Shown here in pieces: positions 4,559-43,521 of a stretch of 43,521 nucleotides of DNA. The stretch lies in IMG/VR virus record IMGVR_UViG_2872185964_000007; one strand, written 5' to 3'. A model generated the notes under the pieces. It was not told the origin of the DNA. It made no database searches and was given only the letters and a program-made list of their open reading frames with translations. The translations under genes were made by a program, and so were the position numbers. Source of the DNA: a virus. Its lineage: Duplodnaviria; Heunggongvirae; Uroviricota; Caudoviricetes. How positions within the stretch are numbered: position 1 is the stretch's first letter; the number at the start of each line of letters is the position of its first letter.

Positions 4559-5370
4559 GCAAGTCGTTTTGGTTATGCTGCAAACCAGATACGCCGTGAC
4601 CGTCCGCTGACACATGAAGAACTGATACGCCATGTACCCAGTATTTTTGGGGAAGACCGGCACACCTCCCGCAGTGAACGGTATGCGTACATTCCCACCA
4701 TTACCGTCCTGGAAAATCTGCAGCGGGAAGGCTTTCAGCCGTTCTTCGCCTGCCAGACCCGTGTGCGCGACCCGGGCCGCCGGGGATACACAAAACACAT
4801 GCTGCGTCTGCGGCGGGCCGGAGAGATAAACGGAGAACATGTCCCTGAAATTATTCTGCTCAACTCTCATGACGGTACCTCCAGCTACCAGATGCTGCCG
4901 GGTTACTTCAGGTTCGTCTGCCAGAACGGGTGCGTCTGTGGCCAGTCTCTGGGGAAGTGCGTGTTCCACACCGGGGAAATGTAGTGGAGAAAGTTATCGA
5001 AGGGGCTTACGAGGTGGTGGGCGTGTTTGACCGGATAGAGGAGAAGCGTGATGCCATGCAGTCGCTGGTCCTGCCGCCACCGGCACGCCAGGCGCTGGCA
5101 CAGGCGGCACTGACTTACCGTTATGGTGACGAACATCAGCCCGTCACCACCGCCGACATTCTGACGCCGCGACGCCGGGAGGATTACGGTAAGGACCTGT
5201 GGAGCGCATATCAGACCATCCAGGAGAATATGCTGAAAGGCGGGATTTCCGGTCGCAGTGCAAAAGGAAAACGTATCCATACCCGGGCCATTCACAGCAT
5301 TGATACCGACATTAAGCTCAATCGCGCATTGTGGGTGATGGCAGAAACGATGCTGGAGAGCCTGCGCTGA
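4559..5370 (+). pseudogene. DUF932-family (YfjQ/YafZ-like) cryptic-prophage protein, 5'-truncated by IS2 and frameshifted
   Basis: Protein similarity begins immediately after the IS2 terminus; ORFs 4424-4984 and 4930-5370 are consecutive parts in different frames. Confidence 0.6.
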
Positions 5371-38372: not shown

Positions 38373-39134
38373 GTGGTGTTGTCTCCTCTTCCGGCCTGCG
38401 ACTCTCCGCTATCTGCTGCTGATACGCCTGCGCTATCCACACCGGACGTGAGAGTCCGGCTTTTTCCCGCTCTGCAGATTCCCTGACCTGCTGGCAGAAA
38501 ATGTCCTGATAATCCTCGCCCATCAGCGCCAGCTCTTTCTCATACGTGCTCAGTCCGGCCTCAATGCGCATCACTGATTCCTGAACCTCCTTGAGCCCGT
38601 CAATGGCCATTCTTCCGGCTCCAATCCACTCAGCCCGTGACCAGGCTGATCGCGCCTGATAAAAATCAAACCGTGCCCGTGGCGGACGAATAATCCCCGA
38701 AGAAGTGCCTCTTCCAGCCAGCAGGAAAACATCTGCGTGGCCAGCCGGGACGCAATAAATTTTCGCCGCCCCATAAAATAGCGCCACGACTCATTGGCGG
38801 ATGCGCGGGCACTTGAGTAACTGACCTTCGAGTAATCACGGGACAACTGTTCGTAGGAAACGCCAAGACCGGCGGCGATATACCGCAGCAGCGCCTGTTC
38901 AAGCGCCGAAAATCCATTGTCTGAATCCTGCGCGGTCTGAAGTTTCAGATCATCACCGGGGAAAAGGTGCGGAATTTTGACACCGCCCAGCATCACGCTA
39001 TTCGTGTCATACCAGGTGGAGAACTTATCCAGAATATTAATAAGCGGATTATCCTTCTGCCCCTGCGGCGCACCGGCGATATATTCAAAGGCCTTTTCGG
39101 TATCAAGGTCACTTTCAATCGTCGCTGCATACAT
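38362..39134 (-). pseudogene. Portal protein B, 5'-truncated and frameshifted
   Basis: Only the C-terminal ~300 residues remain (ORFs 38571-39134 and 38362-38787); no upstream head genes or terminase follow. Confidence 0.75.
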
Positions 39135-39560
39135 CGCCTTTATGAAAAGACAGGAAAAAATAAAATTTAAAAACAGTACATTACGAATGCTCAGACCTAT
39201 CGTTTAAAGGAGTCGCAATACACACTGCAATACACGATTATTTATAAGATGAGCGGCATCCGTCATAAAGCTGGTGGATGCTTTTTCTATGCATATATGC
39301 ACAGTTTTAGTAGGCGTTAATGTCGATATAGGGATCCCCATATCGAGATTGGATACCAGGCTTTTTTAATCAGGCTGGTGGGCTTTACCTGTTTTGTATG
39401 AGTGGTCATCATGACCATGTCATAACAAAAACCCCATATTCGTGGTTTTTCTGTGTCGGGCTATTCTGTCGTTGCTGTGCTGATTTGGCTGGTGGGCTGA
39501 ATCATCATTACGGCGATGCAGCTATGTAGACGTTCCGGCCTCCTCAAATTGAGGATTGTG

Positions 39561-39718
39561 GAAGAATCAATGGGTTAGTCTTACTTTCCCGACATCCCCC
39601 AATGGGGGTTTCGAAACAATCAATAGCTTAGGCTTACTTCCCGATTTCCTGCATTGCAGGTTTTCGAAATAATCAATGGGTTAGGCCATCGTGCAATTTT
39701 GCACTTTGCCAGCCAGCG
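39561..39718. repeat. Three tandem ~53-bp units, each with a conserved 5' half and a short GC hairpin followed by a T-tract
   Basis: Units start at 39561, 39613, 39666 (conserved GAAnAATCAAT..GGTTAG..CTTACTT..CCCGA); hairpins CCCCCaatGGGGG, CCTGCattGCAGG, GTGCAatttTGCAC differ in stem sequence but not position. Confidence 0.6.
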
Positions 39719-39933
39719 CAATGTCGCGTTATCAGTCCTCAGATGTGAGGGATGTAGCCAGCTTTTCCCCAGTGGGGGATATCCAGCACCGACGGCTTAA
39801 CTGTGCGTGCCAGCACAAGGTAGCCTTGAACTACTTACTGCATCCCATCTTACAGGCCGTGCCTTCCGGCTTAACTTTTTGCAATGCAACAAGTCAGCCA
39901 GCGCAATTTTGCGTTATCGGGAATATCAGCAAG

Positions 39934-40215
39934 TTACCGCCGCAATCGTTCCGGCTTCTTCCACTGGTAAGTATTTTTCGCGCTCTCCCTCCGTTGTTGA
40001 GAACGGCGACGATATGCCAGCAACTCAAGGACTCTTGTTCGTATGTTGCGCATATCCACGCCGTTAAGCTCAATACCGTCACGGCGCATCACCTCAGCCA
40101 CTACACGCACATAATTATCTGCGGTCACGCTGTCCGGCTGCGTGGCCTGTTCGTCATGCTGCTTGCTGATTCCACAAGCACGGCGGATTAATCGCAGTAT
40201 TTCGGATTCAGTCAT
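39934..40215 (-). CDS. Hypothetical basic protein (93 aa)
   Basis: ORF only; no family recognised; lies between the repeat region and the IS911-like element. Confidence 0.3.
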   Translation of the reverse strand: MTESEILRLIRRACGISKQHDEQATQPDSVTADNYVRVVAEVMRRDGIELNGVDMRNIRTRVLELLAYRRRSQQRRESAKNTYQWKKPERLRR

Positions 40216-40339
40216 AGCGTACTACGTTACTTATCTTTATTCGGCTGCAACTTATCCGGTACGTTTCCGGCAGTTTCCATCAGATAATCGGACAGCTGAG
40301 GTGTACTGGCAATAGCGGACACTACCATTTGTTCTTTTT

Positions 40340-41158
40340 TTAAGCAGCCATCTGATGATATTTTTCCCTGAAGGCTGCCGGGGAGATATTCCCCAGACGA
40401 GAGTGACGACGCTGACGATTGTAGAAAATCTCAATGTATTCCCGTATTACTGAGATGGCTTCATCCCGGTTATTAAAACGATAGTGGCTCAGGCTCTCAT
40501 TTTTCAGCGTTCCCCAGAAGGTTTCCATCGGAGCGTTGTCGTAACAGTGACCTTTACGCGACATTGATGTTTTCAGACCAGACTGCTCCTGTATGACCCG
40601 GTAATCGTATGCGCAGTACTGTGAACCTCGATCAGAGTGGTGGATTAGCCCGGCAGGTGGGCGCTGGCTCCTGAGCGCCATAAACAGGGCTTTACCTGTC
40701 AGCTCTTTTGTCATGCGCTCTCCCATGGCGTAGCCGACAATTTCGCACGTATAAACATCTTTGATGCCAGCGAGGTACAACCATCCCTCCTGTGTGGCAA
40801 CATACGTCAGGTCCGCCACCCAGACCTGATTTGGTGCTGTAGGAGCGAACGTCTGGTTCAGCAGATTTGGCGCAACTGGCAGATTGTGGTTCGGGTTCGT
40901 AGTCGCTCTGAACTTGCGTTTCTGCTTACAGCGTAGCCTTAGCTCCTTACGAAGACGTGCCAGTCGGTCACGACCAACGATGATGCCATTCTCTGCCAGC
41001 TCCGTCTGGAGCCGCCGGGTTCCATATGTTTCGCGAGTGCGGATATGTGCCACCTTAATCTCCAGTTTTAGCCGCTCATCACTTTGTTTTCTGTCTGAGG
41101 GTTCATGCTGTACCCAGTTGTAATAACCGCTCCTGGATACACCAAATACCTGACACAT
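40340..41158 (-). CDS. IS3-family (IS911-like) transposase OrfB (integrase core)
   Basis: 272-aa ORF from the first ATG; the true OrfB frame overlaps orfA and is expressed by -1 frameshifting. Confidence 0.85.
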   Translation of the reverse strand: MCQVFGVSRSGYYNWVQHEPSDRKQSDERLKLEIKVAHIRTRETYGTRRLQTELAENGIIVGRDRLARLRKELRLRCKQKRKFRATTNPNHNLPVAPNLLNQTFAPTAPNQVWVADLTYVATQEGWLYLAGIKDVYTCEIVGYAMGERMTKELTGKALFMALRSQRPPAGLIHHSDRGSQYCAYDYRVIQEQSGLKTSMSRKGHCYDNAPMETFWGTLKNESLSHYRFNNRDEAISVIREYIEIFYNRQRRHSRLGNISPAAFREKYHQMAA

Positions 41159-41193
41159 CGCTTCAATGGGAAATTGTTGTCGCCATTGTTCGA

Positions 41194-41496
41194 TTAACGC
41201 GTATTTTTCAGCGACTCCTGTGCAAAATACGCTGTTGCTTTTTTTAATATATCTCGCTCAAGGCGAGCTTCATTTAACGCCTTACGCAGTTGCAGAATTT
41301 CAGATTCCAGTTCAGCCACCGTGCGGGAACCAGGAGTACCGAGCCCTTTTCTGGCGGCGGTAACCCATTGTCCTAAAGTGCCTTCAGGAAGGGATAATCG
41401 GGAAGCGCCTTCACTGATCGAAAGTTGATTTTCAAGAACCGTTCTGACAGCTTCGGCTTTGAACTCTTTAGAGTAACGTTGGTTTTTTCTGCTCAT
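41194..41496 (-). CDS. IS3-family (IS911-like) OrfA (HTH/leucine zipper)
   Basis: 100-aa ORF matching IS911 OrfA as recalled. Confidence 0.85.
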   Translation of the reverse strand: MSRKNQRYSKEFKAEAVRTVLENQLSISEGASRLSLPEGTLGQWVTAARKGLGTPGSRTVAELESEILQLRKALNEARLERDILKKATAYFAQESLKNTR

Positions 41497-41651
41497 TATT
41501 AGCTCCTTCTGATGCCATTCTATTTCAGGAAGGAGTGTCCGTTAAACTCAGGCTACCTCAATCAGCGCCAGTCAGTCAGCCGGAGCAAAAACAGAAGCCC
41601 CACTCATTCCGGAACAACCTTCTTAATAACCCATTTCAACGAGAAAATCCT

Positions 41652-41921
41652 ATGTCAGAAATAAAATCGCTGGTCACTGCTGAGGCAGTGAAGGAAGTCC
41701 TGCGCTCTGAAGAAGTCCGGAGCGCACTGAAACAGCAACTTCGGCAGAACCTTGAGGCGCGTCTTGATGCAGAAGTGGATTCAATTCTGGATGAACTGCT
41801 GGGCGCACCGACTGTTCCGGAGCCGGAAGGCATTGCGGATGACAGTGCTGTTTCAGATGGCGTCGGGTCTCAGCCTGACGGTAGTGAAGGGCCTCAGCCT
41901 GACGGCGAAATGATGATGTAA
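41652..41921 (+). CDS. Hypothetical small acidic protein (~89 aa)
   Basis: ORF only (track begins at upstream ATG 41535); no family recognised. Confidence 0.3.
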   Translation: MSEIKSLVTAEAVKEVLRSEEVRSALKQQLRQNLEARLDAEVDSILDELLGAPTVPEPEGIADDSAVSDGVGSQPDGSEGPQPDGEMMM

Positions 41922-42122
41922 CCATGCGCAGGGGTGTCGGTGTGAGCTGATGCCCCACTTGTTGTTGTGAGCTTCCGGATTGCGGGAGACGGGTATGTAC
42001 CAGATGGAAAAAATCACAACAGGTGTGTCATACACCGTAAGCGTAAACTGACCGCCGTATGTAGCCATTAAGCCTGTATTGGTAACGTAGGTGCCCACCT
42101 TTTCAACTAGTGGACACCTGTT

Positions 42123-42541
42123 ATGGAACAGAAAGCATTATCTGCAGAACCCGCAGATCATTTTCAAATGAGTTTAAACTTCAAATGGTTAAACTGGCTT
42201 CACAACCAGGAGCCTCTGTTGCCCGTATTGCCCGGGAACACGATATCAATGATAACCTGCTGTTCAAATGGCTCAGGCTCTGGCAGAACGGAGGGCGCAT
42301 ATCGCGGCGTCTTCCGGTAACAACCTCTTCTGACACTGGCGTTGAATTATTACCTGTGGAGATAACGCCGGATGAGCCGAAAGAACCGGTGGCTGCTCTT
42401 ACTCCGTCTTTATCTACTCAGACTACAGTTAGTGCCAGCTCCTGCAAGGTGGAGTTCCGTCACGGTAACATGACGCTGGAAAATCCTTCACCAGAGCTGC
42501 TCACAGTGTTGATCCGTGAACTGACCGGGAGGGGACGATGA
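42123..42541 (+). pseudogene. IS66 tnpA, frameshifted
   Basis: C-run of 3 (GAACCCGCAG, ~42147-42149) where copy 1 has 4. Confidence 0.8.
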
Positions 42542-42810
42542 TCTCACTCCCGTCAGGCACCCGCATCTGGCTCGTTGCTGGGATAACCGATATGCGTAAG
42601 TCTTTCAACGGGCTGGGTGAACAGGTACAGCATGTGCTGAATGATAATCCCTTCTCCGGTCACCTGTTCATCTTCCGTGGCCGACGGGGTGACATGATTA
42701 AAATCCTGTGGGCTGATGCTGATGGTCTGTGCCTGTTCACCAGACGCCTGGAGGAAGGCCAGTTTATCTGGCCTGCTGTGCGTGACGGCAAGGTATCCAT
42801 TACCCGCTAG
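42538..42810 (+). pseudogene. IS66 tnpB, premature stop
   Basis: TAG at 42808-42810 where copy 1 has TCG (Ser); the protein loses its last 26 residues. Confidence 0.8.
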
Positions 42811-42918
42811 CAACTGGCAATGCTCCTCGATAAGCTGGACTGGCGTCAGCCAAAAACATCCCGCCTTAACGCACTGACAATGTTGTAAAAATGTCATGGC
42901 CGGATTATAAAAACGGCC

Positions 42919-43521
42919 ATGAATCAAAAATACCTCATTCGCATTGCAGAACTGGAATGCCAGCTCCGTCAGAAAGACCAGCAACTGAGTCTGGTTGAAG
43001 AGACGGAGGCCTTCCTGCGCTCTGCACTGGCCCGCGCCGAAGAAAAGATCGAAGAAGATGAACGGGAAATAGAACATCTGCGGGCTCAGATAGAAAAACT
43101 GCGCCGGATGCTGTTCGGTACCCGTTCTGAAAAACTGCGTCGTGAAGTTGAACAGGCTGAGGCCCTGCTGAAACAACGCGAACAGGACAGTGATCGTTAC
43201 AGTGGGCGGGAAGACGATCCGCAGGTTCCCCGCCAGTTGCGACAGTCTCGTCATCGTCGCCCGTTACCGGAGCATCTGCCCCGCGAAATAAATCGCCTGG
43301 AGCCAGAAGAAAGCTGTTGCCCGGAGTGTGGCGGTGAGCTGGATTATCTGGGGGAAGTCAGCGCAGAACAACTGGAACTGGTGAGCAGCGCTCTGAAAGT
43401 GATCCGCACAGAACGGGTAAAAAAAGCCTGTACAAAATGTGACTGCATCGTTGAAGCACCGGCACCATCCCGTCCGATAGAGCGTGGTATCGCGGGCCCG
43501 GGTTACTTGCCCGCGTGTTAA
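42919..43521 (+). pseudogene. IS66 tnpC, frameshifted near the window edge
   Basis: G-run of 3 (GGGCCCGGGTTAC, ~43499-43502) where copy 1 has 4; reading frame ends in TAA at 43519-43521. Confidence 0.75.

What the first reader, a model, noticed from the sequence alone, without database searches (positions are those of the whole stretch)
39561..39718. Three tandem 53-bp repeats with a hairpin at a fixed position but different stem sequences
Units starting at 39561, 39613 and 39666 share a conserved 5' half (GAAnAATCAAT..GGTTAG..CTTACTT..CCCGA), and each ends with a 5-bp GC-rich hairpin followed by T-rich sequence: CCCCCaatGGGGG (39596-39608), CCTGCattGCAGG (39648-39660), GTGCAatttTGCAC (39691-39704). 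The stem sequences differ while position and pairing are kept, which suggests selection on structure (RNA hairpins or recombination-site-like DNA structure) rather than on a protein-binding sequence. Further related palindromes follow (CCCCAgTGGGG ~39766-39776; TTGCAaTGCAA ~39870-39880) plus direct repeats CCAGCGCAAT..GCGTTATC at ~39713 and ~39897. The array lies just beyond the truncated prophage end and downstream of an unassigned 93-aa ORF. Possible roles are a small-RNA or antisense array, replication iterons, or recombination sites.
Basis: seen in the sequence. Interest (0 to 1): 0.6.

Follow-up and report, generated by a model that had tools for sequence, protein, structure and literature searches.

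The report
Phage-gene site copies in satellite
The three repeats are real and lie in the non-coding tail of a phage satellite sitting inside a prophage portal gene; each copies a short palindrome-plus-IHF-site segment found inside the roi regulator gene of a different class of lambda-like phages, so the satellite probably binds IHF and helper-phage Roi-type proteins there.

Summary
The array has a 53-nt period in the window and 54 nt in cleaner assemblies. The register is [13-bp palindrome]-10 nt-[IHF consensus WATCAANNNNTTR]. A fourth palindrome upstream (39542-39554) belongs to unit 1. A fourth complete unit overlaps the stop codon of the 93-aa gene.

The "truncated prophage end" is the attR junction of a helper-embedded PICI satellite, a published class, inserted in a lambda-type portal gene. 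Only its last 1.16 kb survives here; an IS3-family element cuts it at 40297.

Each unit is 88-96% identical, on the same strand, to about 50 nt inside the roi (Rha/KilAC anti-repressor) gene of lambdoid phages. The three palindromes match three different roi allele classes. HK022 roi carries the same module; Roi is reported (from memory) to bind its own gene next to an IHF site.

No other part of roi is present, no reading frame is conserved and there is no Rfam hit. The T-run is not conserved, the satellite cos lies elsewhere, and copy number varies from 1 to 5.

Best reading: phased IHF sites paired with Roi-type operators, a DNA-level helper-protein binding array. An RNA antisense to roi is not excluded. 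The array appears undescribed in the literature I could search.

The parts
38571..39134 (-). 3' half of a lambda-family portal gene (helper prophage), interrupted by the satellite
   Evidence: Pfam Phage_portal_2, profile positions 238-354 only. In E. coli CFSAN064035 the two portal halves flank a 10.4-kb satellite.
39128..39140 (.). attR identity block of the helper-embedded PICI (CATACATCGCCTT)
   Evidence: Comparison of the attL and attR junctions in L002. Near-identity to the satellite of CFSAN064035 starts about here, although the flanking prophages are only 70-80% alike.
39215..39235 (+). doubled arm-type motif GCAATACACACTGCAATACAC of the PICI attP
   Evidence: Reverse complement of the HE-PICI motif tgTGTATTGCantgTGTATTGCa published in PMC10111431. 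Three further copies lie next to int in L002.
39270..39495 (+). three co-oriented Chi sites (GCTGGTGG at 39270, 39374, 39488)
   Evidence: They are the only three Chi sites in the 43.5-kb window and are conserved in close relatives.
39542..39577 (+). unit 1: palindrome CCTCAAATTGAGG (39542-39554), spacer, IHF consensus AATCAATGGGTTA (39565-39577)
   Evidence: 96% identical over 50 nt to the anti-repressor (roi-type) gene of phage phi330. IHF pattern hit.
39596..39630 (+). unit 2: palindrome CCCCCAATGGGGG (39596-39608), spacer, IHF consensus AATCAATAGCTTA (39618-39630)
   Evidence: 88.7% identical over 52 nt to roi of HK629, VT2-Sakai and Stx phages, whose palindrome is the imperfect CCCCCAATGGTGG.
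39648..39683 (+). unit 3: palindrome CCTGCATTGCAGG (39648-39660), spacer, IHF consensus AATCAATGGGTTA (39671-39683)
   Evidence: Palindrome plus TTTTCGAAA is identical to a third roi allele class (L148 type). It also matches roi of CP-1639.
39691..39704 (+). orphan palindrome GTGCAATTTTGCAC with no IHF core after it
   Evidence: Sequence; palindrome scan.
39710..39733 (+). degenerate copy of the left part of the terminal unit (CAGCCAGCGCAATGTCGCGTTATC)
   Evidence: Direct repeat D4, 92% identical to 39895-39918. No IHF core follows.
39902..39936 (+). terminal unit: palindrome CGCAATTTTGCG (39902-39913), spacer, IHF-like core TATCAGCAAGTTA (39924-39936); its final TTA is the reverse complement of the 93-aa gene's stop codon
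   Evidence: At this same position 10 of 18 distinct relatives keep a palindrome, with different arms, plus the core.
39934..40215 (-). 93-aa gene, last gene of the satellite late zone (phrog_1561, function unknown)
   Evidence: The AlphaFold2 model has three helices and a basic tail (pLDDT 69) and gives no structural match.
40227..40296 (-). 3' remnant of the satellite's Nu1-type small terminase gene, cut by an insertion sequence
   Evidence: Alignment to L001 7094-7163. Pfam Phage_Nu1 on the intact homologue.
40297..41530 (-). IS3-family insertion sequence that truncates the satellite (ends approximate)
   Evidence: rve and HTH_Tnp_1 ORFs. Homology to the intact satellite stops at 40296.

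Best explanation
The array is a non-coding DNA element at the tail of a phage-inducible chromosomal island (a helper-embedded PICI). It lies between the last late-zone gene and the attachment site. Each unit of about 54 bp is a copy of a module that sits inside the roi gene of lambdoid phages: a 12-15-bp palindrome, a spacer of about 10 bp, and an IHF binding site.

I propose that the units act on double-stranded DNA. Host IHF would bind and sharply bend each WATCAANNNNTTR core. A dimeric Roi/Rha-type winged-helix protein would bind the adjacent palindrome cooperatively, as reported for HK022 Roi at its own gene.

The three palindromes in one satellite correspond to three roi allele classes. 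The satellite could therefore capture, either to sense or to titrate, Roi proteins from several kinds of lambdoid phage, whether helpers or competitors.

Shown: the homology, the architecture, the conservation, and the exclusion of the cos, att, ori, coding and terminator readings. Inferred: actual IHF and Roi binding, and what that binding does for the satellite. The likeliest consequences are a helper-dependent nucleoprotein block or insulator at the end of the late operon, or a sponge for a phage protein that restrains lytic growth.
For: Context.
- The window's portal fragment, att core and arm motif match the published HE-PICI architecture.

Homology to roi.
- Units 1 and 2 hit only roi or anti-repressor genes in 50,697 phage records, on the same strand as the gene in all but a few records.
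- Other unit types do the same.
- Unit 3's palindrome and spacer are identical to a third roi allele class.

IHF site.
- The conserved core equals WATCAANNNNTTR. The window has 6 hits against 1.26 expected, and 3 of them are the array.
- In the 47-kb phage HK629 the strict consensus occurs only 4 times: three hits cluster around the annotated attP, where lambda's known IHF sites lie (the identification with H1, H2 and H' is from my own knowledge), and one is inside roi.
- In HK022 the only hit between O and Q lies inside roi, next to CTGCATTGCAG. This fits Clerget & Boccard 1996, whose abstract I recall from memory; the paper could not be opened.
- In 24 kb of L002, 4 of 5 relaxed IHF hits are array units.

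Selection acting in the satellite itself.
- 26 of 29 distinct units keep a palindrome at the fixed place, with 12 arm sequences.
- The spacer is 10 nt in most units.
- Palindromes followed by the core occur 19 of 125 times on one strand, 0 of 128 on the other, against a background of 0.6%.
- Unit 2's palindrome is perfect in the satellite but imperfect in the coding phage copy.
- The unit next to the 93-aa stop codon shows compensatory arm changes among relatives.
- Chimeric units combine the palindrome of one class with the core of another.

Three roi classes also differ in the putative recognition helix (KQS, KIS or KVS, KRT) in step with the palindrome triplet. This is weak evidence because the two are physically linked.
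Against: - No binding data exist. The Roi-site claim rests on my memory of an abstract, and the palindrome has not been shown to be the Roi site.
- The helper prophage in CFSAN064035 has no roi gene between P and Q, so the array is not tuned to its resident helper.
- About half of the unit types have no phage roi counterpart. CAGCCGTTGGCTG, for example, occurs only in satellites in IMG/VR. Some other protein, or none, must recognise those.
- The whole tail region is rich in unrelated palindromes.
- The module next to the gene end is lost in 8 of 18 relatives.
- No strong terminator separates the array from the upstream operon, so it is probably transcribed and an RNA role cannot be excluded.
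- The benefit to the satellite is conjecture.
Confidence: 0.5

Rival explanations
1. Antisense RNA array. The satellite late operon (terS and the 93-aa gene, minus strand) or the helper's late transcript reads through the array. This would give an RNA complementary to the most variable part of roi mRNA from three allele classes. The RNA would pair with roi mRNA of helper or competing phages and silence it.
For: - The window + strand equals the roi sense strand in nearly every phage hit.
- All satellite genes lie on the other strand.
- No convincing minus-strand terminator lies between the 93-aa gene and the array.
- Identity is 88-96% over about 50 nt.
- All family units have one orientation relative to the satellite genes.
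- Carrying several alleles would make sense for a broad-range silencer.
Against: - Differences from the phage alleles fall in the N positions of the IHF core and in the flanks, while the IHF-specified bases and the dyad symmetry are kept or improved.
- Chimeric units mix classes, which would weaken pairing.
- Several unit types match no phage gene.
- No promoter, Rfam family or Hfq-type terminator is present.
- Loops of 1-3 nt are unlike those of known kissing antisense RNAs.
Confidence: 0.17
2. RNA hairpins at the 3' end of the late operon. They would act as weak terminators or as barriers to 3' exonucleases (REP-like mRNA stabilisers). The resemblance to roi would be historical only.
For: - Four hairpins are predicted on either strand (z = -2.3).
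- The position is just downstream of the last gene.
- Stems covary.
- The tail region contains many other palindromes.
Against: - On the gene strand no hairpin is followed by a U-run. On the other strand the T-run is present in only some unit types.
- This reading does not explain the invariant IHF consensus at a fixed 10-nt distance on one strand only.
- Three of the dyads are symmetric to within 1 nt, which a hairpin cannot use.
Confidence: 0.1
3. Neutral scars of recombination. The units would be short patches captured from phage roi genes during satellite-phage recombination and then duplicated, with no function in the satellite.
For: - The late zone of these satellites is reported to capture phage DNA (PMC10111431).
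- Copy number changes by unequal crossing-over.
- The module is missing in some relatives.
- Three Chi sites lie next to it.
Against: - Only the same 50-nt segment of roi is ever present, from several alleles, and never the flanking gene sequence.
- Palindromes and IHF positions are preserved through many substitutions and in unit types that have no phage counterpart.
Confidence: 0.1
4. A cis site for the satellite's own DNA transactions: an accessory packaging site (cosB-like), a replication origin with iterons, or a distal part of attP.
For: - IHF sites are typical of cosB, attP and some origins.
- The array lies between terS and att.
Against: - The satellite's lambda-type cosQ-cosN lies upstream of terS, about 1.0-1.3 kb from the array, in L002. 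It is absent from the window.
- The att core and arm motifs are 300-400 bp away and are complete without the array.
- The helicase gene is about 4 kb away, and PICI origins are reported to map in the replication zone.
- The palindromes differ from one another, unlike iterons.
- Unit spacing is not conserved among relatives.
Confidence: 0.07
5. A small protein-coding gene on the + strand with an 18-residue repeat. In good assemblies the units are 54 nt and the roi reading frame stays open.
For: A 74-codon ORF spans units 2 and 3 in the three-unit alleles. The 54-nt period equals 18 codons.
Against: - A TAG lies two codons upstream of unit 1.
- The only ATG is inside the unit 2 palindrome and has no ribosome-binding site.
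- Frames and starts are not conserved in relatives.
- The window copy is frameshifted.
Confidence: 0.02

Closest known systems
Roi/IHF site inside the roi gene of phage HK022 and other lambdoid phages (Clerget & Boccard 1996, J Bacteriol 178:4077; recalled from memory, not readable here)
   Same: The module is the same: a palindrome, about 10 nt, then WATCAANNNNTTR. Nucleotide identity to three roi allele classes is 88-96%.
   Different: In phages there is one copy and it is embedded in coding sequence. Here there are 3-5 non-coding copies of different allele types in one satellite, and no roi gene.
Helper-embedded PICIs (Tommasini, Mageeney & Williams 2023, PMC10111431)
   Same: The element carrying the array fits this class. 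It is inserted in, and co-oriented with, a lambda-type late gene. It has the doubled TGTATTGCA arm motif. Complete copies show the Integration, Bro, Replication and Late zones.
   Different: The paper does not mention the array, roi or Rha, or IHF sites in the late zone. The window holds only a 1.16-kb remnant.
Helper-activator binding sites in satellite P4 late promoters (Ogr/Delta sites; own knowledge)
   Same: A satellite carries DNA sites recognised by a helper-phage DNA-binding protein, which couples it to the helper's lytic programme.
   Different: The P4 sites lie upstream of promoters and share one sequence type. Here the sites are downstream of the operon, are of several specificities, and are each paired with an IHF site.
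BIME-1 / RIP elements of E. coli (REP palindromes flanking an IHF site; own knowledge)
   Same: Palindromes are combined with an IHF site in the non-coding 3' flank of an operon, and copy number is variable.
   Different: The REP consensus is absent. The palindromes are 12-15 nt rather than about 35 nt, and they are homologous to phage roi.
cosB of lambda-like phages (R3-I1-R2-R1) and PICI cos-rpp modules (PMC9026076)
   Same: An IHF site is combined with binding sites for a winged-helix protein, close to a small-terminase gene.
   Different: The satellite's cosN lies on the other side of terS. PICI cosB is described as lacking IHF and R repeats.

Membership tests
IHF binding site | Match to the consensus WATCAANNNNTTR (or WATCARNNNNTTR), with specified bases conserved and N positions free | tested here: met
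   Three perfect strict matches at 39565, 39618 and 39671, and one relaxed match at 39924. N positions vary among unit types.
IHF binding site | Physical binding and bending by IHF | not testable with these tools
   Needs a gel shift, footprint or ChIP.
Intragenic Roi/IHF module of lambdoid roi genes | Sequence homology to the palindrome-spacer-IHF segment of roi | tested here: met
   96% identity (phi330), 88.7% (HK629 and Sakai), and identical palindrome plus spacer (L148 class). HK022 carries the same module.
Intragenic Roi/IHF module of lambdoid roi genes | Location inside an intact roi (pRha + KilAC) reading frame | tested here: not met
   tblastn similarity to Roi is restricted to residues 42-67, which are the units themselves. 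No ORF is conserved.
Helper-embedded PICI | [quoted passage not shown] | tested here: met
   A portal gene 3' half abuts the element. Split portal halves flank the complete element in CFSAN064035, with all genes on the same strand.
Helper-embedded PICI | Doubled attP motif tgTGTATTGCantgTGTATTGCa | tested here: met
   Window 39215-39235 is its reverse complement.
Helper-embedded PICI | Integrase of the HE-PICI clade, plus AlpA, Bro and replication zones | tested here: inconclusive
   All are lost from the window because of the IS truncation. They are present in the complete relative L002. The integrase phylogeny was not run.
Intrinsic (rho-independent) terminators | GC-rich hairpin immediately followed by a U-run on the transcribed strand | tested here: not met
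   The scan finds none at the units. The T-run is absent after unit 1 and in most unit types, and no U-run occurs on the gene strand.
Replication iterons / origin | Near-identical direct repeats next to the initiator gene, with an AT-rich region | tested here: not met
   The palindromes differ between units. The helicase gene is about 4 kb away in L002. PICI origins are reported in the replication zone.
cos site (cosN/cosB) | Adjacent to cosN and upstream of the small terminase gene | tested here: not met
   The satellite's cosQ-cosN (66 nt, 95% identical to the helper's) lies at L002 2234-2299, upstream of terS. The array is downstream of terS and the 93-aa gene.
Known RNA families (Rfam 15) | Covariance-model match | tested here: not met
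   No hit with E up to 1 in window 38500-41000 or over the array in L002.
CRISPR array | Identical repeats separating unique spacers, with cas genes nearby | tested here: not met
   The units are contiguous. The variable part is a 13-nt palindrome, and no cas genes are present in the satellite.

The most novel reading that the evidence does not exclude
A phage satellite carries a multi-allelic 'operator mimic' array: tandem copies of the autoregulatory Roi/IHF site from several classes of lambdoid phage. With it the satellite would capture the Roi regulator of whichever phage enters the lytic cycle. That capture would either time a step in the satellite's own cycle or disable a phage protein that restrains lytic growth. 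This would be a DNA-level form of helper sensing or interference not described for satellites. A bolder variant, which I consider less likely, is that the array is transcribed as a multi-allele antisense RNA against roi.
Probability: 0.3. Interest if true: 0.75.

Novelty: new variant of a known kind. Interest (0 to 1): 0.6.

Why it matters
Satellites are known to read their helpers through protein-protein contacts (Stl with Dut, Rpp with TerS) or through helper activators acting on satellite promoters (P4). An array of helper-gene-derived binding sites of several specificities would add another route.

It would also give a function to test for Roi, a widespread but poorly understood lambdoid and Stx-phage protein linked to IHF and to lytic growth.

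The finding also shows that the roi-internal palindrome covaries within coding sequence across allele classes. This marks it as a conserved cis element of Stx and lambdoid phages.

The practical interest is modest. The window copy is an IS-truncated remnant and is probably inert.

Tried and rejected
- Rfam with permissive thresholds on the window region and on a complete satellite found nothing over the array.
- A scan of genome contigs for relatives of the 93-aa protein returned no confirmed locus.
- cos hypothesis: rejected once the satellite's lambda-type cosN was found upstream of terS.
- att-arm hypothesis: rejected once the core and the GCAATACAC arm repeats were located and matched to the published motif.
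- Coding ORF: rejected.
- roi pseudogene: rejected.
- Terminator reading: rejected because the T-run is not conserved.
- The 93-aa neighbour gave no clue as a possible binding protein. It has no Pfam family, belongs to phrog_1561 (function unknown), gives an AlphaFold2 model of moderate confidence, and has no Foldseek PDB match with E below 0.8.
- The 1996 Roi paper could not be opened. [quoted passage not shown]
- I looked for agreement between a satellite's unit types and the roi allele of prophages in the same genome, using contig names. The roi sample was biased towards one class and nothing could be concluded.
- I looked for a phage roi allele with the CAGCCGTTGGCTG palindrome. None was found in IMG/VR.

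Full report
**1. The observation**

Tandem Repeats Finder reports one array at 39565-39686, with period 53, 2.3 copies and 78% matches. The repeat finder gives three copies spaced 53 nt.

Two points change the picture. First, there is one more palindrome upstream, CCTCAAATTGAGG at 39542-39554. The natural unit is therefore palindrome, then about 10 nt, then AATCAAnnnnTTA. On this register GTGCAATTTTGCAC (39691-39704) is an orphan. Second, the window differs from 48 complete E. coli genomes (97.7% identity) by single-base homopolymer losses and a 13-nt gap. In those genomes and in IMG/VR copies the period is exactly 54 nt.

Folding either strand as RNA predicts all four hairpins (z = -2.3).

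**2. Where it lies**

The ORF at 38571-39134 is only the C-terminal part of a lambda-family portal protein. In E. coli CFSAN064035 the same 1.2 kb (window 39100-40296) forms the end of a 10.4-kb element. That element's genes are:
- integrase and AlpA;
- a Bro-N anti-repressor and an Icd-like protein;
- DUF4222, an AAA_25 helicase and SSB;
- a lambda E-type capsid protein and a lambda D-type decoration protein;
- a second AlpA-like protein, a Nu1-type small terminase, and the 93-aa protein.

The element sits inside the portal gene of a lambda-like prophage, and all its genes are co-oriented with the phage late operon.

The two junctions share the block CATA[A/C]ATCGCCTT. GCAATACAC repeats flank it, at window 39215-39235 and, in three copies, next to int. 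This is the architecture published as "helper-embedded PICIs". The repeats are the reverse complement of the published attP motif tgTGTATTGCantgTGTATTGCa (PMC10111431).

The window's prophage is only 70-80% identical to that of CFSAN064035. The same satellite family therefore occupies the portal genes of different phages.

In the window the satellite is a remnant. An IS3-family element cuts it at 40297 inside terS. A DUF826 gene and an IS66 element follow.

**3. What the units are**

A sensitive BLAST of 39300-39950 against 50,697 phage records hit only roi or anti-repressor genes. These hits were on the gene's sense strand.
- Window 39534-39583 (unit 1) is 96% identical to the anti-repressor gene of phage phi330.
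- Window 39589-39640 (unit 2) is 88.7% identical to roi of HK629, VT2-Sakai and many Stx phages.

Roi has a pRha winged-helix domain and a KilAC/ANT domain. The matched segment encodes residues of about 42-60, which is the most variable stretch of the protein.

Eighty roi loci from IMG/VR fall into allele classes. Each class has its own 13-bp palindrome of the form CCnnnAwTnnnGG, followed by TTTTCGAAAAAATCAATAACTTAGG:
- class I, CCCCCAATGGTGG;
- class II, CCTGCATTGCAGG, identical to the unit 3 palindrome;
- class III, CCTCAAATTGAGG or CCTCAATTTGAGG, matching unit 1.

The three units of one satellite thus correspond to three roi allele classes.

HK022 roi is not annotated in NC_002166. It carries CTGCATTGCAG, then 11 nt, then AATCAATGATTTA. 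That is the only IHF-consensus match between genes O and Q.

From memory, Clerget & Boccard (1996) reported that HK022 Roi binds a site within its own gene, closely linked to an IHF site, and that IHF stabilises the binding. I could not open the paper. [quoted passage not shown]

**4. The conserved half is an IHF site**

AATCAATGGGTTA, AATCAATAGCTTA and AATCAATGGGTTA all fit WATCAANNNNTTR. The window has 6 matches against 1.26 expected, and three of them are the array.

The consensus is selective. In the 47-kb genome of HK629 it occurs four times. Three hits cluster around the annotated attP, where lambda's known IHF sites lie (that identification is from my own knowledge). The fourth is inside roi. 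In 24 kb spanning a complete satellite and part of its helper, four of the five relaxed matches are array units.

**5. Conservation in satellites**

I retrieved eighty IMG/VR loci encoding relatives of the 93-aa protein (77-100% identity). Their tails carry 0-3 units upstream of the gene-proximal one. All units lie on the strand opposite to the satellite genes.

The consensus is CCGrCnTC, then a palindrome of 12-15 nt, then nTTyCGrrAAn, then WATCARnnnnTTA.

- Of 29 distinct units, 26 have a palindrome with arms of at least 4 bp at the fixed place. Shuffles give a mean of 3.6 and a maximum of 9. Twelve different arm sequences are used.
- I repeated the test without using the IHF core as anchor. 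Nineteen of 125 distinct palindromes in these tails are followed at 8-12 nt by a perfect core on this strand. None of 128 is on the other strand, and the background is 0.6%.
- Anchoring on the stop codon of the 93-aa gene, 10 of 18 distinct relatives keep a palindrome plus core. The arms change in a compensatory way: CGCAA/TTGCG, CCCA/TGGG, TTCGCC/GGCGAA, GCTCA/TGAGC.
- Unit 2's palindrome is perfect in most satellite copies, including the window's, but imperfect in the coding phage copy; one satellite copy (E. coli 10671) has a mismatch of its own.
- Chimeric units exist, such as a class III palindrome with the core and flank of unit 3.
- Copy number varies. There are three tandem units in the window type and one in L007, L027, L037 and L051. 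E. coli 10671 has four plus the terminal unit; there the satellite lies next to thiM and a large-terminase gene precedes the 93-aa gene.

The module is therefore maintained in the satellites themselves, and it is not limited to helper-embedded satellites.

**6. What it is not**

- Not cos. The satellite's cosQ-cosN (66 nt, 95% identical to the helper's) lies upstream of terS, 1.0-1.3 kb from the array. This matches published PICI cos-rpp layouts.
- Not att. See section 2.
- Not an origin. The helicase gene is about 4 kb away, PICI origins are reported in the replication zone, and the palindromes are not iterons.
- Not a roi pseudogene. Protein-level similarity to Roi in every satellite locus is confined to residues 42-67.
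- Not a gene. No frame or start codon is conserved.
- Not terminators. The scan finds none at the units. The T-run is missing from unit 1 and from most unit types, and the gene strand has no U-run.
- Not a known RNA family.

**7. Mechanism**

Three observations point to recognition of double-stranded DNA:
- the IHF-specified bases are fixed while the N positions vary;
- the palindrome-to-core spacing is constant at about 10 nt;
- three of the palindromes, including all three in the tandem units, are symmetric to within one base.

The best-supported reading is IHF bound at each core with a Roi-type dimer on the adjacent palindrome.

Why a satellite keeps several specificities is inference. One possibility is that it captures the Roi protein of whichever lambdoid phage is active, either as a timing signal or as a sponge. 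Another is that the array forms a nucleoprotein block at the end of the late operon.

Several observations weaken this reading:
- The helper in CFSAN064035 has no roi gene.
- Several unit types have no phage counterpart. CAGCCGTTGGCTG, for example, occurs only in satellite contigs in IMG/VR.
- The tail region is rich in other palindromes.
- The array is probably transcribed, because no terminator precedes it.

The antisense-to-roi reading therefore stays open as the main rival.

The neighbouring 93-aa protein gave no clue. It belongs to phrog_1561, its model has three helices and a basic tail, and it has no structural match.

**8. Novelty**

The satellite class is published. The array, its origin in roi and its IHF sites are not mentioned in that paper. 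They also did not appear in any paper found by six literature searches. A seventh only traced citations of the 1996 Roi paper.

I rate it a new variant of a known kind: protein-binding site arrays, and helper-responsive sites in satellites. Interest is moderate to high for phage-satellite specialists. It is lower for the window itself, where the element is a truncated remnant.

Noticed in passing
window 39270-39277, 39374-39381, 39488-39495 (+ strand): The only three Chi sites (GCTGGTGG) in the 43.5-kb window lie within 226 bp, co-oriented, between the satellite att arm and the array. Their orientation is the one recognised by RecBCD arriving from the terS/cos end. Most related satellites have at least one Chi in this tail.
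   Followed up: partly
window 38571-39260; L002 1-480 and 10865-11698: The 'truncated prophage end' is a portal gene split by a helper-embedded PICI, a published class. The att identity block CATA[A/C]ATCGCCTT and the arm repeats GCAATACAC were located independently and match the published motif.
   Followed up: yes
L002 2234-2299 (absent from the window): The satellite carries a lambda cosQ-cosN (66 nt, 95% identical to the helper's) upstream of its own Nu1-type terS, but with a different cosB. The terS matches Pfam Nu1 only in its C-terminal part.
   Followed up: partly
window 40297-43521: An IS3-family element truncates the satellite inside terS. A DUF826 gene (41535-41921) and an IS66 element (orfA, TnpB and the transposase start, 42110-43521) follow.
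   Followed up: partly
window 39319-39350 and 39405-39419: Further strong palindromes with no assigned role: AATGTCGATATAGGGA|TCCCCATATCGAGATT and TGGTCATCATGACCA. The tails of related satellites are generally rich in perfect palindromes such as GAGTTGCAGATCTGCAACTC and GGCGGAATTCCGCC.
   Followed up: no
window 39255-39282 (+): A terminator-like hairpin followed by TTTTTC. It contains the first Chi site and points away from the portal gene.
   Followed up: no
roi genes, L085-L164 codons 24-50; L166 about 4700-4830: In phage roi genes the palindrome stays a palindrome across allele classes even though it lies in coding sequence. The putative recognition helix (KQS, KIS or KVS, KRT) changes with it. 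HK022 roi is not annotated in NC_002166.
   Followed up: partly
L002 7791-7863 (+): A weak symR-like Rfam match (32.9 bits, below the gathering score of 61) next to the Icd-like gene in the satellite's Bro zone.
   Followed up: no
window 39366 and homopolymers at 39609, 39640, 39767: The window differs from all 48 near-identical complete-genome copies by a 13-nt gap and three single-base homopolymer losses. These may be sequencing errors or decay of the remnant.
   Followed up: no
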